60,043 bases of DNA from a virus (taxonomy: Duplodnaviria > Caudoviricetes), in the IMG/VR virus record IMGVR_UViG_3300018035_000100, positions 1 to 60,043 of that record; one strand, given 5' to 3'. Both the position numbers and the translations under genes were made by a program. The notes under the pieces were generated by a model that saw only the letters and a program-made list of their open reading frames with translations, did not search any database and was not told where the DNA came from. This document shows positions 11,401-58,744 of this stretch, in pieces. Every line of letters begins with the position of its first letter. Position 1 is the first letter of the stretch.

Positions 11401-12434
11401 ATACAACCTCGATTTCTATAACCGGGGCTACAGGATATACATTTACTAATGGAATGATTCTGGAAATTACCGCCGATGTACTATCAATTCCAAGTTTGCA
11501 GAATACTCGTAATGGAGCAACTGTTAATTTTAGTCAACAACAAAGATCCATTTATAGTTTTACAGAATCGTTATCTTTAAGTGGAACAATTACTAATAAC
11601 AGTATAACATTTAATGCTTCAACAGGAGATTTTATTTTAGGATGTTCCTCTATAGGCACATCTTCAGGATCTTCTGCTGTATGTTTTTTAAACGATTCTA
11701 CAGCTCTTTTTGGAACCTTGGCTTATCCAATTTTAGATGGTACATCTTCTATAATTTTTAATATTAATAATTTTAATAATCAAACTGGGACGGCATCTAT
11801 ACAAGCTCTTATTCTTGAATATACTGTGCCTAGTACAATAGGAGATTCCTCTACAGGAGCTCTTATAGGCTATGATTATATACCAGTACAAACTGTTGTA
11901 TCAACCCCCAATCTGGAAATACAGACTATTACCGAGTATCCAGCAATGATTATAAGCAATAATGGTTGGGGGTCTTCTACTCAAGGAACTCCTTATATTA
12001 ATCCCATAGAACAAATTCCTATTACTTTAACGGGATATTATACAGATCAATTATTTTCTATGGATCTTATACAATTTTTAAATTATAATGTGGATAATGG
12101 TTTTATTAAGGTACCCGTTTTGATAGACGGTCAATTATATAATGTACCAATTACTTTATCTACTACTGCCATAGATTCTTTGGGGAGACAATATTTCACA
12201 TCCAGTACTCCACAAATTTCATTTATGTCTGAAGGTCTTCAACAAGAAACCTATAGAAAAATAATGGTCCCGGTCCTGGCCCGGGTCTTGGCCCCGTCTG
12301 GGCCCTTTTTGGCAGGGGAATGTGTATTGGTAGTTTTTACTTCTACTACGGCTTCTCTTGCAAATACAATAAACGGGAATGGAATAGCGGTTTATAAAAT
12401 AGCGGGGAGACCGTTAATTAGATTTACGAGATAG
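8460..12434 (+). CDS. baseplate/tail-fibre protein with inserted YCF48/BNR-type beta-propeller
   Basis: Repeated LNSIxF...GWAVGDSGTILxSxDGGxTW blades; scaffold paralogous to 19877..23014. Confidence 0.75.
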   Translation: MNLGNKVTVTNSDENYNYDSVIFASRKPMIDSDFNSAQEIQNIISQREISDLPSGWITSYPFYFDSDSTNGFYTQNPDGAKPEIALVNGRTLYITGTNTTIANTNFIDLGSPPTSGNAINGIILEMWRSVISYDSSANRPAPEIVLDNLNSINFLSDQSTGWSCGNNGIIIQTFDAGQNWTTQTINTSVNLNSIMFANSNTGYVVGDTGFISKTDTGGATWYDNLSNIDANLSSVFVYDVTGNPSSISVWAVGEYGTILKAQPDGVTFIPVNSNVTFTLNKVYFTSPLIGWAVGDSGTILKSVTGGNTWTQSISGVTVDLNSIYFYDENYGFAVGDSGTILRSSDGGATWINQSSNIIGGPVTQDLLDIAMFPQIYVSITNEEITSQLLNNNTTFFTQQKPIVDIYGNTVEFPSSDASSWISVVSDGTNRTILNVDGLTGLVTIAAADTTYTSTFVNYNYAPTNAVYAGQAWAVGTEGTILYTSNIGADWTQQTNSFTDINLNAVDFLSQTNGFICGSDATIIQTLDGSNWSFVPNNIQPNEIQRLYFEGNIQSNVFLNDNIINSQLNIGASQRVQVQYQIRVLPFANPDYAEAGLNSDILGLGPNSVGYYGYENMGPINGDSGCWQAVCPNTVDGYVYAIPIAFVGRRNTSPWSSQNLNGGHQPNTEYVRLDLLEATEIVESDVLDVRHQVIIPSIEEYFNVSVDQLLSNNLQTVLGTTTGPQYGIELLQVDRVDGASTDGGTLLSTSLSNLYLSPIPGSGDSTVGLFSGSSIITEPTDQTGTATLTLNGSGNGYFTFDPAHYFVYDIDSSAFMQGSFTGFGTPTVTFQFSGNIPDSSHVFSASGDFISYGLNTLTYTPSEAQLVKVYGSSASIFYKGILDTDTNNIIESWDSGVYGYTNYATIYQTEQLSSIQASRGSNVQITFYVQASSSNLINGVLTIPNTLQPNPTDSAVYTIYTPTIVYNVLSEFNHQISSIIKNTTSISITGATGYTFTNGMILEITADVLSIPSLQNTRNGATVNFSQQQRSIYSFTESLSLSGTITNNSITFNASTGDFILGCSSIGTSSGSSAVCFLNDSTALFGTLAYPILDGTSSIIFNINNFNNQTGTASIQALILEYTVPSTIGDSSTGALIGYDYIPVQTVVSTPNLEIQTITEYPAMIISNNGWGSSTQGTPYINPIEQIPITLTGYYTDQLFSMDLIQFLNYNVDNGFIKVPVLIDGQLYNVPITLSTTAIDSLGRQYFTSSTPQISFMSEGLQQETYRKIMVPVLARVLAPSGPFLAGECVLVVFTSTTASLANTINGNGIAVYKIAGRPLIRFTR
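12266..12293. repeat. 6-bp-periodic GC array (GGTC CC GGTC CT GGCC CG GGTC TT GGCC)
   Basis: Five phased cores inside an AT-rich CDS. Confidence 0.7.
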
Positions 12435-12753
12435 AAGATTTTTCAAGAAGATACCAGAATCGTTCTGTTTTTACGGGCCAATGAGAATATAATATAAGAT
12501 TTTGGGGTTCAATAAATCGTTTTAAAGAAGTTCCATGAATTCGTTGTCCGACTATAGAATTTTTTGTAAAACCCAATAAATTCCTGTAGTTTTTAGAAGC
12601 TATATCTTTAGCAATGTATGGTGGATCGTTACTTGACAGATAATCCGTATCAATATATTCTGCTATCCACTCATTTTCCTCTCCTTCATAAAATACAAGT
12701 TGACCTGGTCTATAACCAGAAGCAGAAGAATATAATAATTTTTTTGTTTTCAT
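12424..12753 (-). CDS. small protein of the LILYSHW..K...F..LL C-terminal motif family
   Basis: Ends NLILYSHWPVKTERFWYLLEK; N-terminal RPGQLVFY. Confidence 0.7.
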   Translation of the reverse strand: MKTKKLLYSSASGYRPGQLVFYEGEENEWIAEYIDTDYLSSNDPPYIAKDIASKNYRNLLGFTKNSIVGQRIHGTSLKRFIEPQNLILYSHWPVKTERFWYLLEKSSIS

Positions 12754-13877
12754 AAACCTTCTTCTGCCAATTTCTCTAAAAGTTCCCGAGCACTATGAGA
12801 AAGTTTTTCTGGTGTTTTTACATGAACTTGAACTAGTTGGTCTCCATAATCTTTTTGTTGTAATAGAGGGAGTCCTTTACCTTTAAGTTTTAGAACTTTT
12901 TCTGATTGTGTTCCTGCTGGAATTTTTAAACTAACTTTACCGTAAATAGTTTCTATTTCTTGAGATGCTCCCAAGGCTGCTTGAGAAAAAGTTATATCAA
13001 GTTTAGATAAAAGATCTGCTCCATGTCGTTGGAAAATAGGGTGTTGTTTTTCATTAATTATTACAATAAGATCCCCTATATCTCCACCATTAGCTCCTGC
13101 ATTTCCTTGATCTGGAATTGTTATATAATTTCCCTCAGAAATTCCTGCAGGTATAGAAACTTTTACTGTACTTTCTACAGATTCTATTCCTTCTCCGTTA
13201 CACTTAGAACAAGGATTAGAAATACTTGATCCGGTACCTCCACAAGTTGGGCATCCGTAATCCTGAATAGTTTGTCCAAAGATAGATTGGGAAACTTTTC
13301 TTACTCGTCCTTGGCCATTACAAGAAGTACATTTTTGTTTATGGCCATCTTTAGAACCGGATCCTGAACATACTGAACATCTATCTTTACGTTTTATTTT
13401 TAAAACTTTTTGGATTCCAGTGGATATTTCTTCTAAAGATAATGGTAATTTAATTTGAAGGTCACTACCCTTTACAGAATGGTTTTTAGTTCTACGTGAT
13501 CTACGACCAAAAATATTTCCGAAGGGGGATTCTCCAATATCATATTCAGTTTCTCCTTCAAAATCTTGCATAAAAGCACGGAGAGCGTCTGAAATATCGA
13601 ATCCTGCAAAACCAAAACCATTGCTGAACCCACCCGGTCCCCGTCCTTGCTGGAATGTAGATTTACCAAATTGATCATATTGAGATCTTTTTTGTGGATC
13701 CTTTAATATTTCATAAGCTTCTGTAACTTCGCGAAATTTTTCTTCTGCAATTTTATCTCCAGGATTTTTATCTGGATGAAGTTTCAAAGCTAGTTTTCGA
13801 TAAGCCGTTTTGATTTCTTCTTCAGAAGAATTTTTTTGTACACCTAAAATGTTATAATAGTCATTTGTGGTAGCCAT
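12750..13877 (-). CDS. dnaJ: full-length class A DnaJ co-chaperone
   Basis: J domain with HPD, G/F region, four CxxCxGxG repeats, C-terminal substrate-binding domain. Confidence 0.97.
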   Translation of the reverse strand: MATTNDYYNILGVQKNSSEEEIKTAYRKLALKLHPDKNPGDKIAEEKFREVTEAYEILKDPQKRSQYDQFGKSTFQQGRGPGGFSNGFGFAGFDISDALRAFMQDFEGETEYDIGESPFGNIFGRRSRRTKNHSVKGSDLQIKLPLSLEEISTGIQKVLKIKRKDRCSVCSGSGSKDGHKQKCTSCNGQGRVRKVSQSIFGQTIQDYGCPTCGGTGSSISNPCSKCNGEGIESVESTVKVSIPAGISEGNYITIPDQGNAGANGGDIGDLIVIINEKQHPIFQRHGADLLSKLDITFSQAALGASQEIETIYGKVSLKIPAGTQSEKVLKLKGKGLPLLQQKDYGDQLVQVHVKTPEKLSHSARELLEKLAEEGL

Positions 13878-13919: not shown

Positions 13920-16900
13920 TTATATGGGCAAAACTTCAGCTATTACTATTTGTTGCCATGCCGAGGTAATTGTTCCATCCATATAAGGAGTAAAACCTGG
14001 AAGAAAGAACGAGGAATAATCTGGCATTATTTGATAATATGTTGAATCTCTTAATATAACTGACGAATCTCCTAGGAAAGGGGCCCATATAGAAGTAGAG
14101 TCTATAAGCTGGGTTGGAGTTTCCGTTCTATAATTATATGGTACTAAAACTTGTGGGTTTTTGCTTGAAAATGAAGCTAATGTCCCGGTTAAATCCGAAG
14201 CAGGGTTATAGCTTGTAATCAATGGATTAATAAAAGGATAATATGAAATCTGCGGGGATGTTGTATCTAATGATAGATATACTAATGGTATATCATCCGC
14301 AAATCCTGGGTATAAATTACTTCCATCATAAATACACGACATTTCTTCATTGATTACTGATAAAACGGCACTATTAGCAATAAGATATGTAAATGACACA
14401 GTTTCTAATTCAAGAGAATATGCAGGATATATTAAACGTACAACATCTCCAGCTTGAATAATGTTACTATTCCAATAAATAATATCTTGATCGAAAGCAT
14501 AATCTTCCCCGTACATTTGAGGAGTCCCACCTTGTACATCAAAAATAACATCTTGCATATTTGTGGGAATTCGTGAAAGTGCAAGGGATTGTTCAATGGC
14601 CATTGTTGGGGTAATTATAAAATTTTCAATAATGACTGTTTCCCCTTGCCCTGTAAGTTGTATATAAAGATTAGTGTCATTATTAATAAACGTAGATTGA
14701 TTAATGATATTAGAATATGGCACCCCATTAATAGAAACAATTATATCTGAAGTAGTAGCTAAAGTTGTACTATCATGCAAAGCTGGGTATGCAGGAAAAT
14801 TAACCCATATTGTTGCTCCAGAAGTAGTGTCTGTGTATTGTACCGGTACCGTAGGGGGTAAAGTAAAACTAGTGACATCAGACATATTTTCATAAAAACT
14901 ATAAGTTATTTGATAGCATCCAGTAGGGAGTGAAAGACCTATATTAGTTACATCTACAGTAGCATCTTTAAGTGTAGCGACATCATAAAATTCCCACGGT
15001 GCATCGTCCAAAGGGGTTTCAGTTTGTTCATAAAGTGTAAATGCTGTAGTTAATCGAGTATCTTCAAGACTGGAAAGGCAACATGTTTCTCCGGTTGTAT
15101 TTTCTACTAATAATAGATCATTGTATAATTGTAATCTATTGTTAATTGATAAATCTTGTATTCGTTGTTCGTGGGTAAGATTAGTAATTGTTCCGTCATA
15201 TATCCATCTACTTTGATCAGACCAAGTTTTTTGAAACGGGGGAGTTCCAGGATTTAATATAATAGATGCAGGAATATTTTTTTTAAGATAATCATCGTTT
15301 AGAATTATGTTTTCTTCCGTATCAGTTAAGAACTCGGGACTGAAAAAATAATTATAATGATTAAAAGTACCTTTTAAATCTTTCGATGAAGCTTTGGGAC
15401 CCGGTTTTTGATAAGTATTTAACAATGTGTCAAAAGAATTAAAACTATCAGAACGGGATAAGAGATCTGTCCGGAATTTATACCCTATTTGTAATTGTTC
15501 TGGAAAGGGAACAGGATTAACGAAAGTCCCATCAATTAAATCTTCCCCATCATAAACTAAGTTGGTATCTAAATTTCGAGCTTCATCATCATATAAAAGC
15601 GAATACTCATCTGTTCCACTTTGAAAATAATTAAAAGTAAATGTATTGTCAATTGTTGGAGTATAACCAGCTGGAGAAGCTAACCAAAATGATTGATAAG
15701 GATTTAATGTAAGAAACCCACCTACAGGTTCTATATCCAAAACTGCATTAGGAATAATAGTCCCGTCTAATTGCACTATAACATCATTTGGAGAAGCTAA
15801 TATATTGCTTCCATCACCGTTTGAAATCGGAGGGTTTTGTAATTGCCATTGAGATATTCCAAAAACTATGTTTTCAACTGTAGTGTCTACGGTGGAATCA
15901 TTATAAATATAAGAGATATTTACCTGTAAAATATCCCCCAAAACGGGACGCATAAAATTCCAAGCTGTAGCATCTGTTTTTAATAAAACAGCTGAATTTA
16001 TACCTTCGTCAACCGTGTCTAATACTACATTTGTAAATGTAGTGTCTGTGGAAATATTTATAATTTCTGTTATTGATGGTACGAGATATGGTTCTGAAGA
16101 TCCTGTAGTTAAAAGATATGGGGTTATTAATGTACAATTTGATTGGGATAATAATTCGTAAGTTGTCCCATAAGATAAATTACCAATTGTGTTTATTGGT
16201 GTTATTCCGGTAAATCCTGGATAAGAGCTTAACGGGGTGGTTTCTATAGGAGATGAAAGTTGTGTAAATGGGGTTGTAAGAGATAATGTAAACCACGCTT
16301 CCCCTGTTATAGGATAAATAGAGGGATTAGAAATATCCCCACTAGTGGCATTAACACCAATGGTGTTTATTTGTATATTACCAAATGAGTCAACAATAAT
16401 TCCATTAGAGGGCTGTGAACTAATAATTGTCAAGGTTGCATTGTTATATATCGACGTATTTAATATTGATGTAATTGTAAGGCCATAGCCAGGACCATCA
16501 ATGCCCTCTATAAAAATCGAAAGAGGTCTCGACGCATATTGTTTTCCAGTGGACGGTTCTGTGACTTCTAAATATGTTTCGGAATTTATAATACTAGAAA
16601 AAACATTACTTGCAGCTTGAGTAGTGTAAGATGTTATATAACTCGTGGTTCCATCAATTAAAGATATAGTTGAATCAATATAAAAATAATTTGGAAGTAT
16701 AAGAGTATAAACATCTCCTAATAATTCTCTATCGTTAGAACTATCTCGAGCAATGGAAAATCTTGGATTTCCCATTCTTTCTTGTAAAATTATAATGTCA
16801 GTTTGATTAGTGTCAGAACCGCTACATAAATTATGACGTGTATCTTCATAGAACGAAGAAACAGAATGTTGAACTAAACTGTCGTACATTGTTGTGGGAG

Positions 16901-18200
16901 TAGTTTTAGAAGTATCTGCTAAACCCCAATGATAACTAACCCAAGGAGTGGTTCCATCTAAAGGACAGGTCGTGTCAATTCCTGTCCAAGTCCTTTGAAT
17001 AAATTCTTGAAAAAATGGAAGTTGATAATTACTTTGATAGAATTTTGCATAACTATTGTCCGACAACGTGGATATCTGATAATCTTCTATAGTTGTTTTA
17101 TCTTGATTTCCGTAGAAACTAATTCCATTGTATGGCAAATATGACAAATAATTATTAAATCCATTAATATTTCCAGGATAAAAGTTTACATCTCCTGGAA
17201 TTGTTAAATATTCCATTGTAAAAGTACTATCTAATAAAGAATTTAAATTTGTATCCTTTCCTGTTGCATCAAAGATTTCGGTTCCAGTCGAACTTGGGTC
17301 TATAACAATTCCGCAAGTATTATTATTCTGGTCTAGTGCAAATATTATTGAGTTTGTAGTGTCTATTGAAACTGTGGTATAAAAAGAATTTAATAATTTT
17401 GTGGAAGTCACTTCCATTATTTTTAAAGCAAGTAAGGCTTGATCTTGATTAAATAGGTCAGGTTCAGTAATAGAATTAAATGTAGTAAAATTATATCCAG
17501 GTATAGACCCTGCTCCCGGGTCACCCCATATAATATCGTGAGTTTTGTTTACATCTATTGTGTCTACCCATATTAATTTTGTATCGTATAAAACATGGGC
17601 AGGTTTAATAAGATTTATATAAAAATCAAGATTTTCTAAAATTAATGCTACATTAGATCCATTAGACAAAAGATCATCTATAAATAATTCTATGATCATT
17701 TTATTTGTGTCTTTTAACCCATATCCAGAGTTTGATTTACGGGCTTCTAAATATAATTCTTTAACTACTACATTTAAATTGATTAAGTTGTTAACAACAG
17801 TTTCTATAGTAGATACGGTACTTCCATTTAAATAGGCATTTCGTAATGTGAGTAATATGTTTCGAAGATCATAGTCGCTTATTGAAGAAGATAGTTGTTG
17901 TCCATATAAAAGACGATTTCCTAAAACCGGGTATAGAAAATCAGGTCTGGTAGTAGCATAAATTCCATCATTACTTACTAATTGCCCGGATAATTGTATA
18001 CGACCCGCTTCTCGAGCCAGAACCAAAAAGAGTTGGGATAAATTTGTATTTACATTTTTAGGATAATTGCTAGGGAGAAAAGTTAATAATGTAGATAGAA
18101 TAAGAGATGACTGGCTATTTAAAGATGCCCTGAATTGTTTATTATCGGGGAGTCGGTTTCTACCAATTTTTTCAGAATTAAAATAGTAATTTTGGGACAT
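13920..18200 (-). CDS. large baseplate wedge/tail protein (tail-protein-I/gp7-like N-terminus)
   Basis: LRNILLTLRNAYLNGST...LIKPAHV resembles P2 I/gp7-type wedge proteins; S/T-rich beta composition. Confidence 0.65.
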   Translation of the reverse strand: MSQNYYFNSEKIGRNRLPDNKQFRASLNSQSSLILSTLLTFLPSNYPKNVNTNLSQLFLVLAREAGRIQLSGQLVSNDGIYATTRPDFLYPVLGNRLLYGQQLSSSISDYDLRNILLTLRNAYLNGSTVSTIETVVNNLINLNVVVKELYLEARKSNSGYGLKDTNKMIIELFIDDLLSNGSNVALILENLDFYINLIKPAHVLYDTKLIWVDTIDVNKTHDIIWGDPGAGSIPGYNFTTFNSITEPDLFNQDQALLALKIMEVTSTKLLNSFYTTVSIDTTNSIIFALDQNNNTCGIVIDPSSTGTEIFDATGKDTNLNSLLDSTFTMEYLTIPGDVNFYPGNINGFNNYLSYLPYNGISFYGNQDKTTIEDYQISTLSDNSYAKFYQSNYQLPFFQEFIQRTWTGIDTTCPLDGTTPWVSYHWGLADTSKTTPTTMYDSLVQHSVSSFYEDTRHNLCSGSDTNQTDIIILQERMGNPRFSIARDSSNDRELLGDVYTLILPNYFYIDSTISLIDGTTSYITSYTTQAASNVFSSIINSETYLEVTEPSTGKQYASRPLSIFIEGIDGPGYGLTITSILNTSIYNNATLTIISSQPSNGIIVDSFGNIQINTIGVNATSGDISNPSIYPITGEAWFTLSLTTPFTQLSSPIETTPLSSYPGFTGITPINTIGNLSYGTTYELLSQSNCTLITPYLLTTGSSEPYLVPSITEIINISTDTTFTNVVLDTVDEGINSAVLLKTDATAWNFMRPVLGDILQVNISYIYNDSTVDTTVENIVFGISQWQLQNPPISNGDGSNILASPNDVIVQLDGTIIPNAVLDIEPVGGFLTLNPYQSFWLASPAGYTPTIDNTFTFNYFQSGTDEYSLLYDDEARNLDTNLVYDGEDLIDGTFVNPVPFPEQLQIGYKFRTDLLSRSDSFNSFDTLLNTYQKPGPKASSKDLKGTFNHYNYFFSPEFLTDTEENIILNDDYLKKNIPASIILNPGTPPFQKTWSDQSRWIYDGTITNLTHEQRIQDLSINNRLQLYNDLLLVENTTGETCCLSSLEDTRLTTAFTLYEQTETPLDDAPWEFYDVATLKDATVDVTNIGLSLPTGCYQITYSFYENMSDVTSFTLPPTVPVQYTDTTSGATIWVNFPAYPALHDSTTLATTSDIIVSINGVPYSNIINQSTFINNDTNLYIQLTGQGETVIIENFIITPTMAIEQSLALSRIPTNMQDVIFDVQGGTPQMYGEDYAFDQDIIYWNSNIIQAGDVVRLIYPAYSLELETVSFTYLIANSAVLSVINEEMSCIYDGSNLYPGFADDIPLVYLSLDTTSPQISYYPFINPLITSYNPASDLTGTLASFSSKNPQVLVPYNYRTETPTQLIDSTSIWAPFLGDSSVILRDSTYYQIMPDYSSFFLPGFTPYMDGTITSAWQQIVIAEVLPI

Positions 18201-19876: not shown

Positions 19877-22800
19877 ATGCCCGATAATTTAGGTTTAAAT
19901 CAAACCCGCGTTCTAGACGACACAGACAGAAATTTTGAAGCTGTTATATCTCAAATTCGCAAACCACCCTTATCTTGTGAAGCAAACCTTCAAGATAAGA
20001 TCAATATGACACGTTTACAAAATACTGTTAGATCTATTACTACGAGTGGGTGGACTTCAGTTGGAGCTATAGTAAATAATGTCCCCGTTAGTGAATGTGC
20101 TGTTGGAGATGTTCTTTGTAGTACATTCAGTGCTAATACAATAAATTTAATTGCTACTAATAATGGGCAAGAAACTTATAAAAATACAGCTTGGGTAAAT
20201 GGTTGGGAAGTTCTTGTACAAGCTTCTTCTGCTGCGGGGGATAGCGGTGCGGTTCCCATCACTAATGCTACTTTAAATAACTATATAACCCTTACTTCTC
20301 CTTCTGCAGGAAGTCCTCCGCCTTGGGGCATAGATTTTGTTTATCTTGAAGTATGGCGCGAACTTTTAGATCCTACAGACACTGTTTATCAATATGGAAA
20401 TGTTTGTGGCCCTTCCCTTACAAATGATCTTATAGATCCTGCTCGTGGTTTTGAAACTACTTTACGTATTCAAACTCAATATAGAATTAGAGCAACTAGA
20501 ATACAGGACGTCAATATTAATGTTGATCAAGGATTTGACAACATTCCTCCTCAAGGCCCTATGAGTATTCCTGTAACAGGCTCGCGAGATAGTACGTCAC
20601 CTTGGACATATAGCAAAGATATTTCTGATCCCGGGCTTTGGAAAGCCGGTTATGGGGATACAACTTCACAGGCTATTTTAGGAACCGTAGACGGATATAT
20701 TTACGCTATTCCAATGTTTGCTGTAGCACGACGAAATTCTAGCCCCTATGTTCCTGGTACAAACTCTAATGAAGCTGGAGTAAATTTAGCAGGATATTTA
20801 GATGGAACAGCTTCAGATAGACCAGATAATCTTTATAGCGATTATATTGTAGCCCAAGATATACTTGATCTTAGACATAAAGTTTTTTATAAAGAAAGTC
20901 TTACTGAAATGTGTGCCGATGCTTTTACTAGATTAGAATATAATAATTTACAAACTGCAATGTACTATAATCAATCGGGTGAAGCTTATATGTCTGTTTA
21001 TAGAACCCAATCAGATTTTATAGGGCCTGGTAATTACACGTGGGCAAATTCACTTGGAATCGGAGATGGAATTAGAAATGTATTTTCAAATGCAGGCGAC
21101 ACACAATACTTTGCTTTAAAAGAAGTCTACCCATCTCCTACTTGGACAACAGGACAAACTGTTACTATTACACCTATTGGGGCCTCATATCCAGCAGGAA
21201 CTACTTTTGATTTTCAAGCAGCTTATTTTAATGCAACCGGAGATCAAACTAATACAATAGTTGGTGATACAACTGTTAGTGTTATATTAAACTCGATAGC
21301 TTCATCACAAGATAGTACGTCACCATTAATTTTTAATTATAATATAAATTATCCAATAGGGTCCTATGGATTATCAGAAGTACCAACAAGGTTTTTGGAA
21401 GCACGTAATATGGCAGGTAGTAGTGTTGGTTTACCAATAGCTTTTCCTGGAAATCCAATCCCTGTACGCTTAGATCCTCTCAGCCAAGGGGTAAATATTG
21501 TAGTCGATACAAGTACGGGCGATTTTACAAATATGTTACAAAATATGACCGGATCAGTTTATGATTTATATAACTTTGGTCATCAAATGATTTATAATAT
21601 AGAAGGAACAGGAAGCAATTTATTTACTATAGATAGAACATTAGGTGGATACAATATTATTGGAGTAGCAGATGTCTCATATAATGGCTCTTCGGTACCA
21701 AGCAATCTATTAACTGTATCCCGAACCCCTACAGCATATACAGTAAATACAGACAATGCTGTAGCCGATGGAACTAATGTCACCTTTACATTATATACGG
21801 GCACTAAATTCTTTGAAGTTAATAAACAAGCTAGAGCTATTACTGGTTGTTATGAAATGCTAGAAATTGTAGCAGATCAAACAGGAGGAGGTGGTAGAAC
21901 GCAGTTTACTATAGACGCCTCTAATTTTTACATTATAGCTTTAGGAGCGTATTCACAATCTGACGGAACTGCTTATGCTTATGTCACATCTGGTGGGGAT
22001 TCGTCCAGAGCAATTATTACATCTCCAAATAATACTAATCTTTTTTTAAATCCTTTAAATGTAATAGACGAAAACAGTAATCCTGATTCAACCATTACAA
22101 TAACTCTCGCATCTACTCCTGCAAGCGGATCTATTATTAGTGTACCAGTTTTAAGAACAAGTGCTGTTCAACCTTCAGAAAACTATATGTTTTTCTATGA
22201 ATATCTTCCTTATCAAGGACTAATTGGAAACGATGCTATAACAGGAAATATTGTGGCTACAGGCCCGTCCATAACCACAACTTATGGTTCAGGAGCCATA
22301 ACACCTATTATATCGGGTGGGGGTGTAGGTAGTATTAGTGGAAGCACTCTAACTCTTGATGTCCCGGGTCTGGGCCCGGGCCCGTTTTTTCCTGAACGGA
22401 TAGGGGATATTATAAATATCTATGATTACTACAATTTTAGAATTACAGAAATAATAGATTCTACATCGGTGGTAATAAATTATCCAATTCCGAATACTTT
22501 TCCGGGTGGGGATAGTTTTTCTACCTACAGCTCCACAACATATTTTGATAAATATAATATAATTGATAGATTCCCAGCAGCGAACTCAGAAAATGACCCT
22601 CTGGGCACTTCTGCGGATACTTCATCCGTGTCTGGTGTATCGGACCCTGTTATCGAGAATCGAGCCGTAGCGCGACCCCAGCCCTTTAATAGCTATACAG
22701 AACCCTTGATTGGGGTAAACTCTGCAGACCGAGGTCGTACAGGTATCATTGCTAACAATTCCCCATATGGAATAAATCCAGGTGGATTAGGAATGACCTA

Positions 22801-23014
22801 TGAATCCTTATCAACCACATCTCCATATCAAAAGACTTATCAATCCTATATTATAAATAAAAATAATTCTGGGGAATTATATATGGTTGTGGTAGGGTCA
22901 GAAGACGATAATTTAGGATCTACGTGTTATTTAAATCCATATTCCCTTGATGATGTCGTGGATTATTTTGCTCTTCCAGGTCGACCTTTACTCCCTAATG
23001 TGGATCCACAATAA
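19877..23014 (+). CDS. baseplate/tail-fibre protein, paralogue of 8460..12434
   Basis: Shares VYLEVWR, RIQTQYRIR, TVDGYIYAIP..ARRN, ILDLRH and C-terminal GRPL blocks. Confidence 0.7.
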   Translation: MPDNLGLNQTRVLDDTDRNFEAVISQIRKPPLSCEANLQDKINMTRLQNTVRSITTSGWTSVGAIVNNVPVSECAVGDVLCSTFSANTINLIATNNGQETYKNTAWVNGWEVLVQASSAAGDSGAVPITNATLNNYITLTSPSAGSPPPWGIDFVYLEVWRELLDPTDTVYQYGNVCGPSLTNDLIDPARGFETTLRIQTQYRIRATRIQDVNINVDQGFDNIPPQGPMSIPVTGSRDSTSPWTYSKDISDPGLWKAGYGDTTSQAILGTVDGYIYAIPMFAVARRNSSPYVPGTNSNEAGVNLAGYLDGTASDRPDNLYSDYIVAQDILDLRHKVFYKESLTEMCADAFTRLEYNNLQTAMYYNQSGEAYMSVYRTQSDFIGPGNYTWANSLGIGDGIRNVFSNAGDTQYFALKEVYPSPTWTTGQTVTITPIGASYPAGTTFDFQAAYFNATGDQTNTIVGDTTVSVILNSIASSQDSTSPLIFNYNINYPIGSYGLSEVPTRFLEARNMAGSSVGLPIAFPGNPIPVRLDPLSQGVNIVVDTSTGDFTNMLQNMTGSVYDLYNFGHQMIYNIEGTGSNLFTIDRTLGGYNIIGVADVSYNGSSVPSNLLTVSRTPTAYTVNTDNAVADGTNVTFTLYTGTKFFEVNKQARAITGCYEMLEIVADQTGGGGRTQFTIDASNFYIIALGAYSQSDGTAYAYVTSGGDSSRAIITSPNNTNLFLNPLNVIDENSNPDSTITITLASTPASGSIISVPVLRTSAVQPSENYMFFYEYLPYQGLIGNDAITGNIVATGPSITTTYGSGAITPIISGGGVGSISGSTLTLDVPGLGPGPFFPERIGDIINIYDYYNFRITEIIDSTSVVINYPIPNTFPGGDSFSTYSSTTYFDKYNIIDRFPAANSENDPLGTSADTSSVSGVSDPVIENRAVARPQPFNSYTEPLIGVNSADRGRTGIIANNSPYGINPGGLGMTYESLSTTSPYQKTYQSYIINKNNSGELYMVVVGSEDDNLGSTCYLNPYSLDDVVDYFALPGRPLLPNVDPQ
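22361..22382. repeat. 6-bp-periodic GC array (GTCC CG GGTC TG GGCC CG GGCC)
   Basis: Four phased cores in CDS. Confidence 0.6.
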
Positions 23015-23875
23015 ATGGAATCGATACACGAATATATTAGATATTTAGCCGGTACATTTAAAAAAGCTGATGATCCAATGATCAAGGCCCCGGACCCGGG
23101 CCCTGTCCCAGAACCGACCCCTGATGGAAAGAATCCGATCGATCAAAAGACGCATAAATTAAAACTTGAAAAAATAGATATATCTTTTTTTGCCCCATAT
23201 CAAAATAATACCGAAACTTTAACTATAGAAAAGAATAAAAGCCATGAAGCTAATTTTCAATGGAATCAATACTCTTTATTGCTTTCGGATGGGAATGTAA
23301 ATCCCGTTAAAAAGCAATGGTATAGGTTTTATGAAAAATTGGAAGCTTGGGGCACTGTACAGCCTGGAAATGCCCAAATCAAACGGGTAAATGAAAAAGG
23401 TGTACCAACCGATGAGCTTACGAAACAGCCCCTTCCAGAGTCCTTAACGGTTCAATCTATTCAAGCCCAGTTCCGGGACCTGTTACAAAAACCTGATTTG
23501 GAACCTAATAAACCTGAATCTATGGTTGAATATATAAATGGGCAAAAACCTGTAAAAACCTATAGCCCAACAGAATTCAAAAATACGTATGAAAATGGGA
23601 CTTTAAATAAAGACGGGACACATTTTTATGTTCTAGTCAGTAAGAGTAATGATATACTTAGCCCATTAGGGAAAAAGTTAGGTGCAAATCCTGAAATGGA
23701 ATCCGCTAAAAAGGAACCCGTTACTAAGGAACCTCAAACGACAGGAAAACCAGAACACGGTGGTTCTCCGATTCCAGAATCTAAAGGTCCGGAAATGGCT
23801 CCAACTAATCAATCTACGGCTCCTTTATCTGCTCCGGAACAACATACTCCGAATCTTCAAAATCTTAAATCTTAA
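23015..23875 (+). CDS. hypothetical protein with Pro/Glu-rich termini
   Basis: 286-aa ORF starting directly after the previous stop. Confidence 0.55.
   Translation: MESIHEYIRYLAGTFKKADDPMIKAPDPGPVPEPTPDGKNPIDQKTHKLKLEKIDISFFAPYQNNTETLTIEKNKSHEANFQWNQYSLLLSDGNVNPVKKQWYRFYEKLEAWGTVQPGNAQIKRVNEKGVPTDELTKQPLPESLTVQSIQAQFRDLLQKPDLEPNKPESMVEYINGQKPVKTYSPTEFKNTYENGTLNKDGTHFYVLVSKSNDILSPLGKKLGANPEMESAKKEPVTKEPQTTGKPEHGGSPIPESKGPEMAPTNQSTAPLSAPEQHTPNLQNLKS
23086..23108. repeat. 6-bp-periodic GC array (GGCCCC GGACCC GGGCCC TGTCC)
   Basis: Phased GC cores in CDS. Confidence 0.55.
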
Positions 23876-23881
23876 AAATAG

Positions 23882-23910
23882 TTTATTTTTTTATTTTTTA
23901 GGTATATAAT
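23882..23910 (+). promoter_or_regulatory. sigma70-like promoter TTTATT-17-TATAAT
   Basis: Intergenic, upstream of the SNF2/glycosylation operon. Confidence 0.55.
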
Positions 23911-23958
23911 ATAATTAAGGTAGGTTTTTGTCCCTAAATAAAATAGGATTGCAGAGCG

Positions 23959-39091: not shown

Positions 39092-39113
39092 TAAAAAATA
39101 ATAAAAAAACAGG

Positions 39114-39142: not shown

Positions 39143-39170
39143 TAAAAACAAGCATAATAACTCCTTCTGG

Positions 39171-45359: not shown

Positions 45360-45483
45360 AGGGTCTTTGAAGCGATCGCTGGTTTTATACAAAAATTAGA
45401 TGAACTTTTTATTATCAGTTGTGGATTTACTATCATCAGCAGTCCAGCCTGAGATAGGAAGTAAATCAAACCCGGAGGTTTTT

Positions 45484-46860
45484 ATGATTAAAATTTCAAC
45501 GTTGTTCGATTTTGACAAAGTATCTTTTGAAAAAGAAAGTGATGTCCATCTTGATGTCATTCTCAAGGCCCCGGCCCGGGACATGTCCAAGCGCATTCCA
45601 TTACACCTGATTCTTGCAATAGATTGTTCAGGTTCTATGATAGGAACTAAACTTTCTCAAGTAAAATCCACAGTTAAAAAGTTAGTAGATCATCTTACAG
45701 AAAATGATAGCTTAGGTATTATTTCTTTTGCTAGCAATGCTCAAGAAGTCACATCTACTGTTCCTATGACAGATGCGAACAAAAAATATGCAAAAGAGCA
45801 GATAGACGGAATTCAAGCATCTAGTGTAACTAATCTTAGTGAAGCTATTACTTTTGCTACTGAACGATCGATTTCAGCAGATAAATCTAAAGTATGTAGA
45901 ATAATACTTTTAACTGATGGTCAGCCCACTTGTGGAACATGTGATCGTGATAGTCTTATAAAACTTGTAGAAACCATAAACCCCTCAATTTCTATATCTA
46001 CATTTGGATATGGCTCAGATTTTGATTCAGATCTTATGTCCTCTATTTCTACAACGGGTCGAGGAAATAATTTTTATATTAAAGAAGATTTAGATTGTAA
46101 TAGTGCTTTTGCTGCAGAACTAGGGGGATTGTTATCTCTTTATGGTCAAAACATAAAAATACGGTTATCCCCCTCTTCTAATATGTCTTTTACGGAACTT
46201 TTAAGTGAGTATAAATGCGAGCAAAAAAATGGATATCGTTTAATTACTCCTTCTAAATTTGATGTTTCTATAGACGATATATTTGCTGGAGAAAGTAAAC
46301 ATATTATTATGAAATTAAAAGTTCCTAAGGCTACAGAGGCGGTGTGTGCTAGAGAAACTTCTGTTTGTAAAATTATTGTTGATTATTTAGATGTAGAAAC
46401 AAAAGTTACTCAATCTGTTTCAGCTACCGCAAAAATACAATATGTGAAAGAAGACAAGACTTCCAAAATAGCGAATAAAACTGTCCGGGAACAATTGGCA
46501 ATTATTGAGGCTATTAAAATCCAGAAAGCTGCAAAAGAAGAAGCTGAAAAGCAGAATTATACTGCGGCACAGGAAATTCTTACTAAAGGGATTGCTTGGG
46601 CAGCCAATAATATAGATCTTGGAGCTATGGCTCCTGCCTTAACAGGGACTTATTCTGCTATGTCTATAAGTTATTCCTCAGCAACTAATTATAATTTGGT
46701 AGGTTCAAAACTATCAAATTCTTTTTATCAAACAATGGCAAAAGGTAGAGCGGCTACGTCAAATGATATTGGCAGTGGGATTATTTATGAAACTTCCACA
46801 ATGCAGGAAGTAGAAAAATCTTTTAAAGATGATACATCTAAAAAGAAAAGGAATAAATAA
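45484..46860 (+). CDS. von Willebrand factor A domain protein
   Basis: MIDAS motif IDCSGSM...TNL...LLTDG, STFGYG; GGAGG RBS before ATG 45484. Confidence 0.9.
   Translation: MIKISTLFDFDKVSFEKESDVHLDVILKAPARDMSKRIPLHLILAIDCSGSMIGTKLSQVKSTVKKLVDHLTENDSLGIISFASNAQEVTSTVPMTDANKKYAKEQIDGIQASSVTNLSEAITFATERSISADKSKVCRIILLTDGQPTCGTCDRDSLIKLVETINPSISISTFGYGSDFDSDLMSSISTTGRGNNFYIKEDLDCNSAFAAELGGLLSLYGQNIKIRLSPSSNMSFTELLSEYKCEQKNGYRLITPSKFDVSIDDIFAGESKHIIMKLKVPKATEAVCARETSVCKIIVDYLDVETKVTQSVSATAKIQYVKEDKTSKIANKTVREQLAIIEAIKIQKAAKEEAEKQNYTAAQEILTKGIAWAANNIDLGAMAPALTGTYSAMSISYSSATNYNLVGSKLSNSFYQTMAKGRAATSNDIGSGIIYETSTMQEVEKSFKDDTSKKKRNK
45567..45588. repeat. 6-bp-periodic GC array (GGCC CC GGCC CG GGAC AT GTCC)
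   Basis: Four phased cores in the vWA CDS. Confidence 0.65.
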
Positions 46861-53081: not shown

Positions 53082-53246
53082 ATGACTTTCATAAAAGATA
53101 TCACATTTTTACTTGCTGGATTAACTATAGTAGGAATAATTGTAGGAGTAATAATTCAATACGGTTTTTTTTTGGGTATGGCAGTTGTAGCGTTAGTTTT
53201 AACAGTTTGTTCACCGTTTATAATCAAACATATCAAGGACTTATAG
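53082..53246 (+). CDS. small 2-TM membrane protein (holin-like size)
   Basis: Hand-translated 54 aa: MTFIKDITFLLAGLTIVGIIVGVIIQYGFFLGMAVVALVLTVCSPFIIKHIKDL. Confidence 0.45.
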   Translation: MTFIKDITFLLAGLTIVGIIVGVIIQYGFFLGMAVVALVLTVCSPFIIKHIKDL

Positions 53247-53553
53247 TTATAATTTTTATTCCCAAGTCCCGGGCCTTGGCCTCGCACACGGGACAGGGTC
53301 CTATCCGGGCCAAGGCCCCGGCCCTTCCCACTCTACATAATAATAAAGTTTTTAACGATTTTGGGTGTTCTTTCATTAGTGCCATTTCAGCATGAATTCC
53401 GCCCCCATGTCTATAAAATCTAGGACGATTTGTAGCGGTTGCAACTAATTCTCCGCGTTTATTAAACCCTAACGCTGAAATTTTATATCTACAAGATGAA
53501 GTCGCAGCTTTTTTGATTGCGATATTTATATGATTATGATGTAAACGTGACAT
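53233..53553 (-). CDS. zinc-dependent cytidine/dCMP-deaminase-fold protein
   Basis: IHAE...PCPVC catalytic motifs. Confidence 0.8.
   Translation of the reverse strand: MSRLHHNHINIAIKKAATSSCRYKISALGFNKRGELVATATNRPRFYRHGGGIHAEMALMKEHPKSLKTLLLCRVGRAGALARIGPCPVCEAKARDLGIKIITISP
53266..53323. repeat. compound 6-bp-periodic GC array
   Basis: GTCC CG GGCC TT GGCC; GGAC AG GGTC; GGCC AA GGCC CC GGCC. Confidence 0.65.
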
Positions 53554-56657: not shown

Positions 56658-57398
56658 ATGGAAAGAAAATATTGTGAAAAATGTGGAATACTTTTAGGAC
56701 TTACAACAAAGGGTTCATTATGCAATAAACACAGAGATCGAGCAGGAATTAACAACCCATTTTACGGAAAAACTCATTCAAAAGAAACAATTGATAAAGC
56801 AAAAATAAAATGTAAGACCTCTTCAGAAAAATTGTGGAAAGATCCTCTTTATCGAGAAAAAGTAATAAAAGCAATTTCTAAACCTAGACCAAAGAGTTTC
56901 AAAGATGAACAAAGCCTGCGTATAAAACAATGGTATCAAAATAACCCTGAACAAAAAGAGTTTCGAAGCAAATCTATGAAAAAAAATTGGAGTGAGGGAA
57001 AAATAAAACCTAATTCATGTGCTATTCATAATTCTACTTCTAAGCAAGAAGCAAAGTTTTTTTCCGACATTAAAAGCATTTTTGGCGATTACGCTATTAA
57101 AAAATCCCTGAGATTGGGAAAAAAATGGATTATTCCAGATGTTCTTTTAAAAGATATTCATTATGTAATAGAATATTATGGAGATTTTTGGCACGCAAAT
57201 CCAGAAAAATATAAGGCTAATGATATTATTTATTTTAAAACTGCTAAAGAGGTATGGGATAGAGATGCATATCGAATAAAATTATTAAAAGAGGCTGGAT
57301 ATGAGGTTATAATTGTTTGGGACTCAGATTATAAGAAAAATAAAGAAAAAATATTAAATAACCTCTCTTATCTTTTATGGGATAGTTGCATTTTTTAA
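56658..57398 (+). CDS. homing endonuclease: NUMOD3 plus Vsr/PD-(D/E)XK-like domain
   Basis: NNPFYGKTHSKET; PD...VIEYYGDFWH...RD......GYEVIIVW. Confidence 0.82.
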   Translation: MERKYCEKCGILLGLTTKGSLCNKHRDRAGINNPFYGKTHSKETIDKAKIKCKTSSEKLWKDPLYREKVIKAISKPRPKSFKDEQSLRIKQWYQNNPEQKEFRSKSMKKNWSEGKIKPNSCAIHNSTSKQEAKFFSDIKSIFGDYAIKKSLRLGKKWIIPDVLLKDIHYVIEYYGDFWHANPEKYKANDIIYFKTAKEVWDRDAYRIKLLKEAGYEVIIVWDSDYKKNKEKILNNLSYLLWDSCIF

Positions 57399-58744
57399 TG
57401 TTCCTCTCGTATTATTTTTCCTGCTTTCATATTTATTAATGGTTTGATTCTATTTAAAATCACTGCTGTTGGTTTAAGTGCCTCTTCAATGATTCGTGAG
57501 TCTTTATATGCACTAGGAGATTCATCTAAAGTATCCGTTGCAATAGTTGTAGAATAAATCCCGGTCATTTGCCTTTTGTATGTATTAACATCAAGTGTTT
57601 TTTTGGCTTTTGCTCTAGACATATTCCTACCAGCTCCATGCGGGGCACTATAATTCCATTCCGGGTTAGATAGACCCTCACATATTAATATCCCATCTCT
57701 CATATTATAAGGTATCAACATTCGTTCCCCAATATAAGATCTGATTGCCCCCTTACGGATTATAAAATCTCTGAAATCGATATAGTTGTGTGTTGTTGAA
57801 ATAGAATCTTTAATTTCTGTTTCGGGATAATCAGATTTAATTATTTCAACAATTTTTTTAATAATTAAATTACGATTGGTTTCTGCATAATGTTGAGCAA
57901 AAATCATATCATATAAATACCCAATTGCTTGGTCACCTTCAAGCCATCGAAGCTCATCTGAACAGGGATAAGTCGGAACCGGGTCTGGGGACGCTTTATA
58001 AGCTTTGATTTGCTCATAAAGTTCTTTACCAGTATACCGGGATTTTAAATCAGCTATAGCTTCTTGGCGATCAGCTTTTGATCGTTTAGTAAAATTTTTA
58101 ATAGCTGTGCCTTGCCAATAACCACAAATAGCTTTACCAAGATTACGGGATCCAGTATGATCGGTAATCCAAATATTTTTATTCAAATCTTTTCCAATTT
58201 CAATAAAATGATTTGATCCTCCATTTGACATTAAGCTATTTAAAACTCTTTTTGGATCACACCCTATTAAATGGCATTTATCAAGGAGCCATTTAATATC
58301 ATAATAAGGGGGTGGAGGAACCGCAATAGAAAATCGATTTTGATAAGCTACAGCGAAGGACTGGGCCCGGGCCCGGGCCTCTTTCCAGTCATATTCCCGT
58401 TCCACATTTATAACTGATCGATCATTAATATCGAACCCGAATGGAATATGTTGTCGTATACGTTGCTCAATTCTTGCCAAGTCCAAATTTTCTAAACGTC
58501 CAAGATTAGTTGACAAAAGCCCACACCCTATGTCAACCGAAACGGTGTTTGGGACTATATACGGACCTATAGGCATCGTAAAACCGATCGGTGACGAAGT
58601 CCCTTGATGTATATCAGGCATCATCACCACAGAATTCGTAAACCCTTTATGATTAATGAGTTCCGTAACCTGTCCTATTGCAGACGGTTCAACATCATCG
58701 ATCATTATTTTTGCAGACGTATATTTTCCAAATAATTCAATCAT
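57395..58744 (-). CDS. rtcB: RtcB RNA-splicing/repair ligase
   Basis: MPD.H, VDIGCG, NHFIE, HTGSR, HNY, RKGA, SAPHGAGR, DESPSAYK. Confidence 0.95.
   Translation of the reverse strand: MIELFGKYTSAKIMIDDVEPSAIGQVTELINHKGFTNSVVMMPDIHQGTSSPIGFTMPIGPYIVPNTVSVDIGCGLLSTNLGRLENLDLARIEQRIRQHIPFGFDINDRSVINVEREYDWKEARARAQSFAVAYQNRFSIAVPPPPYYDIKWLLDKCHLIGCDPKRVLNSLMSNGGSNHFIEIGKDLNKNIWITDHTGSRNLGKAICGYWQGTAIKNFTKRSKADRQEAIADLKSRYTGKELYEQIKAYKASPDPVPTYPCSDELRWLEGDQAIGYLYDMIFAQHYAETNRNLIIKKIVEIIKSDYPETEIKDSISTTHNYIDFRDFIIRKGAIRSYIGERMLIPYNMRDGILICEGLSNPEWNYSAPHGAGRNMSRAKAKKTLDVNTYKRQMTGIYSTTIATDTLDESPSAYKDSRIIEEALKPTAVILNRIKPLINMKAGKIIREEH
58358..58379. repeat. 6-bp-periodic GC array (GGAC TG GGCC CG GGCC CG GGCC)
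   Basis: Four phased cores in rtcB. Confidence 0.65.

What the first reader, a model, noticed from the sequence alone, without database searches (positions are those of the whole stretch)
12266..58379. Cryptic 6-bp-periodic GGNC/GNCC arrays embedded inside unrelated genes
Seen in sequence: in this AT-rich genome, abrupt GC islands are built from 4-bp cores (GGCC, GGTC, GGAC, GTCC, GACC) spaced by exactly 2 nt. Strong arrays are at 12266-12293 (5 units), 22361-22382, 23086-23108, 24924-24951 (5 units), 45567-45588, 53266-53323 and 58358-58379. Weaker ones are at 5416, 24504, 25329, 38305 and 41437. They fall in different frames and strands, encode unrelated peptides (VPVLARVLA, DKVRAGTRD, KAPARDMS, ARARAQS), and force GC-ending codons that are rare here. 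That points to a DNA-level code overprinted on coding sequence. The cores are strand-symmetric. Inference: sites for cooperative binding of a phage DNA-binding protein (genome organisation, segregation, packaging or compartment tethering), or modification/decoy sites, since GGCC, GGNCC and CCCGGG are classic restriction targets.
Basis: partly seen in the sequence, partly recalled or inferred. Interest (0 to 1): 0.8.

Follow-up and report, generated by a model that had tools for sequence, protein, structure and literature searches.

The report
Codon-locked GC lattice in phage genes
In an AT-rich giant-phage genome, about a dozen short stretches inside ordinary genes are written with rare codons so that the DNA reads as a repeating GGNCC pattern every six bases, a real and unexplained signal laid over the protein code.

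Summary
The arrays are real. CCCGGG occurs 15 times against 3.1 expected, and the whole excess lies in about 11 GC islands.

They are not insertions. Orthologues at 69% identity or less align without indels and encode similar peptides with AT-rich codons.

The strong arrays share one codon phase, (GNC)(CNG), which puts half of the fixed bases on wobble positions. Codon choice is specific: GCC 15 to GCG 1, CCG 13 to CCC 3, CGG 9 to CGC 0.

The lattice survives a shuffle that keeps the base after each codon. It is not explained by mRNA folding. It is not conserved in position. A weaker C/G alternation at third codon positions appears in several non-sister relatives.

Function is not shown. My best guess (0.35) is a DNA-level recognition lattice for a sequence-specific protein. 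The main rival (0.25) is a lineage-specific mutation or repair bias.

The parts
12264..12306 (+). Strongest array. Codons GTC CCG GTC CTG GCC CGG GTC TTG GCC CCG TCT GGG CCC encode VPVLARVLAPSGP, near the 3' end of the 1324-aa gene 8460..12434.
   Evidence: The orthologue in L003 has LPVLARIKDPTST, with only a 1-residue gap placed after the array. Terminator-like hairpins on both strands.
22358..22387 (+). Array GTC CCG GGT CTG GGC CCG GGC CCG (VPGLGPGP) in gene 19877..23014, followed by TTTTTT.
   Evidence: Terminator-like at 22363-22384. Folding z -1.87 against dinucleotide shuffles.
23080..23116 (+). Array GCC CCG GAC CCG GGC CCT GTC CCA GAA CCG ACC CCT, an (X-Pro)n linker in gene 23015..23875.
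23468..23485 (+). Weaker run of alternating C/G third bases: GCC CAG TTC CGG GAC CTG (AQFRDL).
24502..24525 (+). Weaker array GCC CAG TCC GCG TCC CGG (AQSASR) in the SNF2 helicase gene 23959..25647.
   Evidence: No indel against 26 relatives. L046 shares CAG TCA GCC TCC CGG at this place.
24923..24958 (+). Array TCG GAC AAG GTC AGG GCC GGG ACC CGG GAC CCG AAG (SDKVRAGTRDPK) in the stretch of the SNF2 gene between its two helicase-domain matches.
   Evidence: Orthologues keep DKVRxG with AT-rich codons and no indel.
25327..25345 (+). Weak array ATG GCC GGG GCC GAG in the SNF2 gene.
38300..38320 (+). Weak array TTG GCC TTG GCC AGA at the 3' end of the family A DNA polymerase gene 35879..38332.
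45560..45589 (+). Array AAG GCC CCG GCC CGG GAC ATG TCC AAG (KAPARDMSK), just before the VWA domain in gene 45400..46860.
53261..53334 (-). Two arrays in inverted orientation (GCC GGG GCC TTG GCC CGG and GAG GCC AAG GCC CGG GAC). They flank the PCxxC zinc motif of a 106-aa deaminase-fold gene 53233..53553 and can form a 13-bp-stem hairpin.
   Evidence: z -2.49, 3 of 200 shuffles fold as well; 8 of 300 variants fold as well.
58351..58388 (-). Array GAG GCC CGG GCC CGG GCC CAG TCC TTC (EARARAQSF) in the RtcB gene 57395..58744.
   Evidence: Aligns without a gap to 6 RtcB relatives.
3321..3341 (+). Weak island GTG GGG GTC CCG GTG CGA.
13623..13653 (-). Weak island GGA CGG GGA CCG GGT GGG in gene 12750..13877.
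17506..17528 (-). Weak island GGT GAC CCG GGA GCA GGG in gene 13920..18200. Orthologues read GDTGGG with AT-rich codons.
5416..5431 (+). It is not a GC island and is in a different codon phase.

Best explanation
Shown: the islands are stretches of 4 to 11 codons in which conserved coding sequence has been rewritten in place, without indels. Third codon positions alternate C and G, and first positions are G after G and C after C where the protein allows. The double strand therefore reads (GGNCCN)n, that is, overlapping GGNCC and CCNGG sites every 3 bp with frequent CCCGGG and GGGCCC cores. The pattern uses the one codon phase that puts the free N on the second codon base. It also pushes amino acids towards Ala, Val, Asp or Gly alternating with Pro, Arg, Leu or Gln.

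Inferred: the lattice is kept by selection at the DNA level as dense, strand-symmetric recognition patches for a sequence-specific DNA-binding or DNA-modifying protein. That protein could belong to the phage or the host and would vary between lineages. What matters would be the local density of sites, not their exact place, so patches turn over quickly and settle wherever a protein tolerates them.
For: - Excess over synonymous shuffles: 9 runs against 0.38, 0 of 300 reach it.
- Excess over a shuffle that also keeps the base after each codon: 9 against 0.97, 0 of 100 reach it; alternating triples 118 against 49.7, z 10.6.
- The excess is confined to clusters. Outside the islands GGNCC is 75 against 67.7 and CCCGGG is 4 against 2.7.
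- Specific choice among GC-ending synonyms: GCC 15 to GCG 1, CCG 13 to CCC 3, CGG 9 to CGC 0. Outside the islands these pairs are 111:81, 81:108 and 36:25.
- One shared phase, which is the rarest in shuffles (12 of 131 runs).
- No indels, and orthologues use AT-rich codons.
- Long alternating peptides such as VPVLARVLAP are far longer than chance allows; 4 of the 6 compatible peptides are arrays.
- The N positions are not complementary between half-sites, and native arrays fold no better than GC3-matched synonymous variants (mean z -0.39). This speaks against a hairpin and for recognition that tolerates any N.
- The motif is strand-symmetric and occurs in genes on both strands.
- Six alternating runs lie within 3.1 kb at 22.3-25.4 kb (P about 0.002, post hoc).
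Against: - No binding or modifying protein was identified.
- Most relatives lack arrays: 51 of 58 loci have none. A core phage function is therefore unlikely.
- The C/G alternation is graded across lineages and is spread across the locus in L042. That looks more like a bias than like discrete sites.
- In L028 the alternation occurs without GG or CC doublets, so GGNCC may not be the unit that matters.
- A 6-bp step is too short for neighbouring dimers of usual size to bind side by side (general knowledge).
- There is no positional conservation.
- The population data are too clonal to test constraint: 8 substitution places in 16 kb.
Confidence: 0.35

Rival explanations
1. The pattern is a by-product of a lineage-specific, context-dependent mutation or repair bias. 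Examples would be templated short-patch conversion, or a repair bias that favours C and G three bases apart. It would act at synonymous and tolerant sites, and the arrays would be its extreme tail with no function.
For: - The alternation is graded and recurs in non-sister lineages: z 11.6, 11.0, 7.6, 6.8, 5.8 and 5.2 in WIN, L042, L028, L035, L016 and L030, among the window and 56 loci (tree).
- The whole window shows a mild preference for the third base to equal the next base: CC 350 against 263, GG 662 against 564.
- A residual excess of alternating triples remains outside the islands: 67 against 46.5.
- Positions are not conserved.
- Each array carries many changes in 30-40 bp, as a templated event would give.
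Against: - Single GGNCC and CCNGG sites are not enriched outside the clusters. This argues against a Vsr-like drive at single sites.
- The junction preference is far too weak to give GC3 of 0.80, and the arrays survive a shuffle that preserves it.
- C3 persists before A or T.
- No donor repeat or DGR-like template was found in the window.
- No known mechanism gives a 6-nt C/G alternation.
Confidence: 0.25
2. The arrays act at the RNA level. In the mRNA they would serve as stable GC hairpins, embedded terminators or roadblocks, barriers to RNases, or binding sites for an RNA-binding protein.
For: - 22363-22384 and 12290-12304 match an intrinsic-terminator pattern. 12285-12269 does so on the minus strand, just past the end of the convergent minus-strand operon.
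- 53250-53345 folds at -34.7 kcal/mol, z -2.49, and better than 292 of 300 GC3-matched variants.
- All arrays lie in transcribed coding sequence and share one phase.
Against: - 8 of 10 tested segments fold no better than dinucleotide shuffles.
- Across 11 islands the mean z against GC3-matched synonymous variants is -0.39.
- Most arrays lack a T tract.
- Terminators inside essential genes, hundreds of bases before the stop codon, would truncate the mRNA.
Confidence: 0.12
3. The arrays act at the level of translation. They would be clusters of rare codons that slow the ribosome at domain boundaries.
For: - GC3 is 0.80 inside and 0.20 outside, so all codons in the arrays are rare here.
- There is a single codon phase.
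- Some arrays lie at possible domain borders: in the stretch of SNF2 between its two helicase-domain matches, and just before the VWA domain.
Against: - A slow-codon cluster would not choose GCC over GCG 15 to 1, or CGG over CGC 9 to 0, nor alternate C and G.
- By general knowledge, NNC codons are usually well decoded.
- The places are not conserved across 60 SNF2 genes.
Confidence: 0.08
4. The arrays are restriction-related decoys or sinks: dense GGNCC, CCNGG and CCCGGG sites that titrate or mislead a host restriction enzyme.
For: The units are classic type II targets (recognition sequences recalled). The spread across lineages is sporadic, as for defence-related traits.
Against: - Extra sites would add vulnerability.
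- Single sites are neither avoided nor enriched outside the islands.
- No DNA methyltransferase was recognised in the window. The methyltransferase-domain hits are to generic families and sit among glycosyltransferases.
Confidence: 0.05
5. The arrays are mobile GC-cluster insertions, like GC clusters of yeast mitochondria or Rickettsia palindromic elements, or they are expansions of a hexanucleotide repeat.
For: They are GC-rich and partly palindromic islands in an AT-rich genome, in frame within genes. ARARA and GPGP are short tandem hexamers.
Against: - There is no length change against orthologues in SNF2 (two arrays, 26 relatives), in gene 13920..18200 or in RtcB.
- Conserved residues run through the arrays, among them the PCxxC motif.
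- In other AT-rich viral contigs the perfect lattice is mostly (Gly-Pro)n, in a different phase and with A or T at third positions.
Confidence: 0.02

Closest known systems
DNA uptake sequences (USS/DUS) of Haemophilus and Neisseria inside coding regions (recalled)
   Same: A DNA-level motif is laid over many unrelated genes. It sits preferentially in the reading frames and protein places that tolerate it, and it shapes the local peptide.
   Different: USS and DUS are single 9-12-mers present at about one per kb, with a known uptake receptor. Here the elements are arrays of a 6-bp lattice in a phage, about one per 5 kb, and no reader protein is known.
ParB/Noc-type sites (parS; Noc-binding site with a CCCGGG core) and lambda ori iterons inside gene O (recalled)
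   Same: These are palindromic protein-binding sites that lie inside coding sequence. One of them has a CCCGGG core. parS sites cluster regionally.
   Different: Those are defined 14-19-bp sites with AT-rich arms and a known partner gene. Here the elements are GC-only lattices of variable length. No ParB-like or initiator gene was recognised in the window.
Tandem short-box operators bound cooperatively (MetJ met boxes, omega repressor heptads) (recalled)
   Same: Head-to-tail short units whose number sets the affinity. The units may lie in either orientation.
   Different: Those boxes are 7-8 bp long and lie in promoters. Here the unit is 6 bp (or 3 bp for the alternating half-sites) and lies within genes.
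Rare-codon clusters
   Same: A local run of codons that are rare in this genome (GC3 0.80 against 0.20).
   Different: The codon choice is set by the nucleotide pattern, not by rarity (GCC over GCG, CGG over CGC), and C and G alternate strictly.
GC clusters of yeast mitochondria and Rickettsia palindromic elements (recalled)
   Same: GC-rich and partly palindromic islands inside genes of an AT-rich genome.
   Different: Those are insertions. These are not.
(Gly-Pro)n hexanucleotide repeats in viral genes
   Same: The same GGNCCN lattice at the DNA level.
   Different: There the phase is GGN CCN, third positions follow genome composition, and the repeat belongs to the protein. That phase holds in 23 of 28 contigs with GC under 0.45. 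Here the phase is GNC CNG, with forced C and G at third positions.

Membership tests
Mobile GC-cluster or palindromic-element insertions | The element is extra sequence compared with empty orthologous sites. | tested here: not met
   No indel at 24502, 24923, 17506 or 58351, and conserved residues run through the arrays. At 12264 there is only a 1-residue gap after the array.
Mobile GC-cluster or palindromic-element insertions | Copies share a common sequence beyond a short motif. | tested here: inconclusive
   The longest shared words are 14-15 bp (22370/58361 and 45564/53311). That is about what a four-letter lattice vocabulary allows by chance (my own rough estimate, not computed).
Protein-binding site arrays (centromere, operator, iteron) | Repeated units with fixed spacing, in excess over chance. 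| tested here: met
Protein-binding site arrays (centromere, operator, iteron) | A cognate DNA-binding protein. | tested here: inconclusive
   None was recognised among the proteins scanned (9, 30, 20 and 10 ORFs). Many ORFs have no family, and only 60 kb of a probably much larger genome is available.
Protein-binding site arrays (centromere, operator, iteron) | Sites conserved in related genomes. | tested here: not met
   51 of 58 related loci have no run, and no positional pile-up is seen across 60 SNF2 genes.
Restriction-modification target clusters | The sequence equals a known recognition site. | tested here: met
   GGNCC, CCNGG, CCCGGG, GGGCCC, GGCC and CCGG are all present in the arrays. 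The enzyme specificities are recalled.
Restriction-modification target clusters | Base modification at the sites, or a cognate enzyme in phage or host. | not testable with these tools
   No methylome data and the host is unknown. No DNA methyltransferase family was hit in the window.
Intrinsic terminators | A GC-rich hairpin followed by a T tract. | tested here: not met
   Of the 7 islands inside the 20 kb that was scanned, three show such a match: 12264-12306 and 22358-22387 with GC-rich stems, and 24502-24525 with two weak matches. The other four islands lie outside the scanned stretch. As a set the arrays fold no better than controls.
Rare-codon pause clusters | Codons chosen for rarity, whatever the nucleotide pattern. 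| tested here: not met
   GCC 15 to GCG 1, CCG 13 to CCC 3, CGG 9 to CGC 0, while the paired codons are about equally rare outside the islands.
Diversity-generating retroelement targets | A template repeat and a variable repeat with a reverse transcriptase. | tested here: not met
   No such repeat pair in the window. No reverse transcriptase among the proteins scanned.

The most novel reading that the evidence does not exclude
Some giant-phage lineages carry a second, strand-symmetric code at synonymous sites, with C and G alternating every third base, condensed into (GGNCC)n patches. A dedicated protein reads this code to organise, mark or partition the very large AT-rich genome. The cluster of six alternating runs at 22.3-25.4 kb, beside a turn in GC skew, would be a centromere-like or origin-like locus built entirely inside coding sequence.
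Probability: 0.2. Interest if true: 0.85.

Novelty: new variant of a known kind. Interest (0 to 1): 0.62.

Why it matters
If the lattice is functional, a phage can write a cis-acting DNA signal into essential genes using wobble positions, strongly enough to change amino acids. That would give a handle, in the form of a synthetic array, for fishing out an unknown genome-organising or genome-marking protein of uncultured giant phages. If it is a mutational by-product, it points to an undescribed repair or replication bias with a 3- or 6-base register. Such a bias would distort codon-usage, selection and gene-transfer inferences in these genomes. In both cases the third-position C/G alternation test used here is a simple screen that can be run on any genome.

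Tried and rejected
- Insertion or mobile-element reading: rejected by the alignments.
- Hexamer expansion: rejected for the same reason.
- DGR-type templating: no repeat pair in the window.
- Drive at single sites, as by a Vsr-like repair: single sites are not enriched outside the islands.
- Preference for equal bases at codon junctions as the sole cause: the arrays survive a shuffle that preserves it.
- mRNA hairpin stability: not better than dinucleotide shuffles or GC3-matched synonymous variants, except at 53261-53334.
- Positional conservation across SNF2 genes: none.
- Population variation: four runs laid as low-depth contigs. They gave 8 substitution places and 5 indel rows in 16 kb, none inside an array. 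That is too little variation to test constraint, and absence of a row is not proof of identity.
- Nearest phage records: no megablast match in the phage collection.
- Closer relatives: none above 69% identity for SNF2 or 40% for RtcB.
- 7-deazaguanine or other DNA-modification genes: the radical-SAM and methyltransferase hits are generic.
- Literature: 'CCCGGG' + 'phage genome' + 'overrepresented' gave 0 papers. 'GGNCC' + 'bacteriophage' gave 19 papers; the 15 listed mostly concern restriction-modification or methyltransferases, and none describes such arrays (search listings only). No paper was read, and supplements were not consulted.

Full report
**What the window is.** The 60,043-bp window has 32.5% GC and is densely coding: 68 ORFs cover 93.7% of it. 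Its genes are those of a large tailed phage:
- baseplate J-like protein, a weak match to a tape-measure protein, and a match to the endolysin family
- SNF2 helicase, family A DNA polymerase, DnaB-like helicase, and the zinc-ribbon domain of DnaG-type primases
- a UvrD helicase with a large insert that weakly matches an intein
- RtcB, ThyX, glycosyl- and methyltransferases, radical-SAM proteins and an ECF-like sigma factor

There is one tRNA-Leu(UAA) gene. The phage record collection has no near match. Relatives in IMG/VR and in metagenomes reach only 69% identity for SNF2 and 40% for RtcB, and some lie on contigs of up to 469 kb. Twenty of the 21 sequencing runs listed, mostly peat or soil metagenomes from 16 studies, hold at least half of the sampled words of a 6-kb stretch. 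Five of them may be the source of the window.

CCCGGG is the most over-represented hexamer: 15 copies against 1.1 from base composition and 3.1 from synonymous shuffles. The excess is confined to clusters. With 11 islands masked, GGNCC is 75 against 67.7, CCNGG is 86 against 83.5, and CCCGGG is 4 against 2.7. Contigs from other runs cover several arrays without differences, but depth is low.

**They are not insertions.**
- In the SNF2 gene both arrays (residues 182-189 and 322-334) align without gaps to 26 relatives.
- At the second SNF2 array, relatives encode the same DKVRxG core with codons such as GAT AAG GTA CGT AAT GGG. The window reads GAC AAG GTC AGG GCC GGG ACC CGG GAC CCG.
- The same holds for 17506 (GDPGAG against GDTGGG) and for the RtcB array. 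At 12264 (PVLAR shared with L003) the only gap is one residue after the array.
- The 74-bp island at 53261-53334 spans the PCxxC zinc motif of a small deaminase-fold protein.

So conserved coding sequence was rewritten in place, mostly at synonymous sites. At variable residues the rewriting also changed amino acids. Examples are the Arg and Pro of TRDP in SNF2, and the extension of VLAR to VPVLARVLAP.

**One codon phase, not several.** Written as codons of the coding strand, the strong arrays alternate a G-N-C codon with a C-N-G or N-N-G codon. The N of GGNCC falls on the second codon base in 6 of 9 runs. Two more (53308, 58358) read the same way in the codon display. Only 5416, which is not a GC island, differs. 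In shuffles this phase is the rarest, at 12 of 131 chance runs.

This is the one phase in which two of the four fixed bases are wobble positions. A nucleotide motif under coding constraint would be expected to sit there.

Codon choice inside the islands is specific:
- Ala: GCC 15 of 18, GCG 1
- Pro: CCG 13 of 18, CCC 3
- Arg: CGG 9 of 13, CGC 0

Outside the islands each pair is about equally rare (111:81, 81:108 and 36:25). This excludes a generic GC3 patch or a generic rare-codon cluster. Only 6 peptides in the window fit the strict alternation for 3 or more pairs, and 4 of them are arrays.

**A broader regularity.** Third codon positions alternate C and G. Triples C-G-C or G-C-G number 118 against 42.7 expected (z 11.6), while other all-GC triples are not enriched (131 against 137). 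The alternation reaches lag 4. It survives a shuffle that keeps each codon's following base: 118 against 49.7, and runs of 6 or more codons 9 against 0.41, with 0 of 100 shuffles reaching that. Outside the islands the window shows only a mild preference for the third base to equal the next base (CC 350 against 263, GG 662 against 564) and a small residual alternation (67 against 46.5).

Among 56 related loci of at least 9 kb, the same alternation is strong in L042 and L038 (two loci that carry the same three runs), and in L028, L035, L016 and L030 (z 5.2 to 11.0). It is weak or absent in the rest. 51 of 58 loci have none. In a quick SNF2 tree the window and L042 fall in different well-supported groups, so the trait arose or was lost more than once. 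Across 60 SNF2 genes neither GC3 excess nor alternating runs pile up at fixed columns: the maximum is 7 against a mean maximum of 6.8 in shuffles.

**What it is not.**
- RNA structure: only 53250-53345 folds better than dinucleotide shuffles (z -2.49, with 3 of 200 shuffles folding as well), and 22350-22400 is marginal (10 of 200). Against synonymous variants with the same GC3 but a free choice of C or G, the 11 islands have mean z -0.39. Only 53261-53334 stands out, with 8 of 300 variants folding as well.
- Terminators: terminator-like patterns with GC-rich stems occur at 12264-12306 and 22358-22387, and two weak ones at 24502-24525, among the 7 islands in the 20 kb scanned.
- Templating repeats: none found.
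In contigs with GC under 0.45 it is a (Gly-Pro)n repeat in 23 of 28 cases, with A or T at third positions. Only 1 of 28 is in the window's phase.

**Most likely mechanism.** Two things are shown. The pattern is a nucleotide-level, strand-symmetric 6-bp lattice written through wobble positions, and it is strong enough to alter peptides.

I infer, at 0.35, that it is kept as dense recognition patches for a sequence-specific DNA-binding or DNA-modifying protein that varies between lineages. Site density would matter more than site position. Supporting points are the free N, the lack of a folding advantage, the clustering, and a regional concentration of six alternating runs in 3.1 kb at 22.3-25.4 kb (P about 0.002, post hoc). 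That concentration lies next to a local minimum of cumulative GC skew near 23.5 kb.

Against this reading: no reader protein was found, the trait is graded across lineages, L028 alternates without GG or CC doublets, and a 6-bp step is short for side-by-side binding.

The main rival, at 0.25, is a lineage-specific mutation or repair bias with no function. RNA-level roles (0.12), translational pausing (0.08), restriction decoys (0.05) and insertions or repeat expansion (0.02) follow.

**Comparison with known systems (names recalled, not tested by any search).** The closest analogues are DNA motifs laid over coding sequence: uptake sequences, parS and Noc sites (one with a CCCGGG core), and lambda ori iterons inside gene O. 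Tandem short-box operators such as MetJ boxes and omega heptads are also close. The arrays meet the feature 'repeated units in excess' but fail 'conserved sites in relatives', and 'cognate protein' remains open. They fail the defining features of mobile GC clusters, intrinsic terminators, rare-codon clusters and DGR targets. My two literature searches found no description of such arrays (listings only).

**Verdict.** The signal is real, statistically strong and unexplained. Interest 0.62.

Noticed in passing
window 50093-52735 (+): The UvrD-type helicase carries an insert of about 270 residues (residues 268-537) between its N- and C-terminal helicase domains. The insert weakly matches the intein splicing domain, at 34.1 bits, just under the 35.8 cut-off.
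   Followed up: no
window 39100-39160 and 39578-39638: A 61-nt intergenic element is repeated at 80% identity. It contains AGGTTGACTTTTTTTGTGGC...ATTATATTTAAAA, which looks like a shared promoter (TTGACT, spacer, TATATT). It lies just upstream of the sigma-factor gene region.
   Followed up: no
window 44015-44323 (+): A phage-encoded homologue of the PTS phosphocarrier HPr (Pfam PTS-HPr, E 4.5e-16).
   Followed up: no
window 53233-53553 (-): A very small (106 aa) deaminase-fold protein with HAE and PCxxC motifs, matching the cytidine/dCMP deaminase family only weakly (E 6e-4, below cut-off). The largest GC island overlies its zinc motif.
   Followed up: partly
window 23000-25500: GC skew turns from about zero or negative to strongly positive near 23.5-25 kb without any change in gene orientation. 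This coincides with the densest group of arrays. It could mark a module boundary or an origin.
   Followed up: partly
whole window, coding sequence outside the islands: Third codon bases tend to equal the first base of the next codon for all four bases: AA z 7.2, CC 6.5, GG 5.8, TT 6.9 against synonymous shuffles.
   Followed up: partly
window 20587 and 20301: All four runs laid lack 15 bases at 20587 compared with the window, and one run has 9 extra bases after 20301. Both are in-frame length variants in gene 19877..23014.
   Followed up: no
L042 (and overlapping L038), whole locus: A relative with 44.5% GC has about 40 GC islands in 16.8 kb, built from the same G-run and C-run vocabulary. 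C/G alternation at third positions is spread across the locus. It may be a more advanced state of the same process.
   Followed up: partly
L028 6516 and the SNF2 alignment at window residues 323-326: Several relatives (L028, L024, L046, L003, L021) also use AAG GTC CGG/AGG at the DKVR site. This hints at an older proto-array there, but the pile-up is not significant after correction (5 against about 1.7 expected at those columns).
   Followed up: yes
window 12424-12434: The convergent genes 8460..12434 (+) and 12424..12753 (-) overlap by 11 bp, so no intergenic room is left for a terminator. The array at 12264-12306 holds terminator-like hairpins on both strands.
   Followed up: partly
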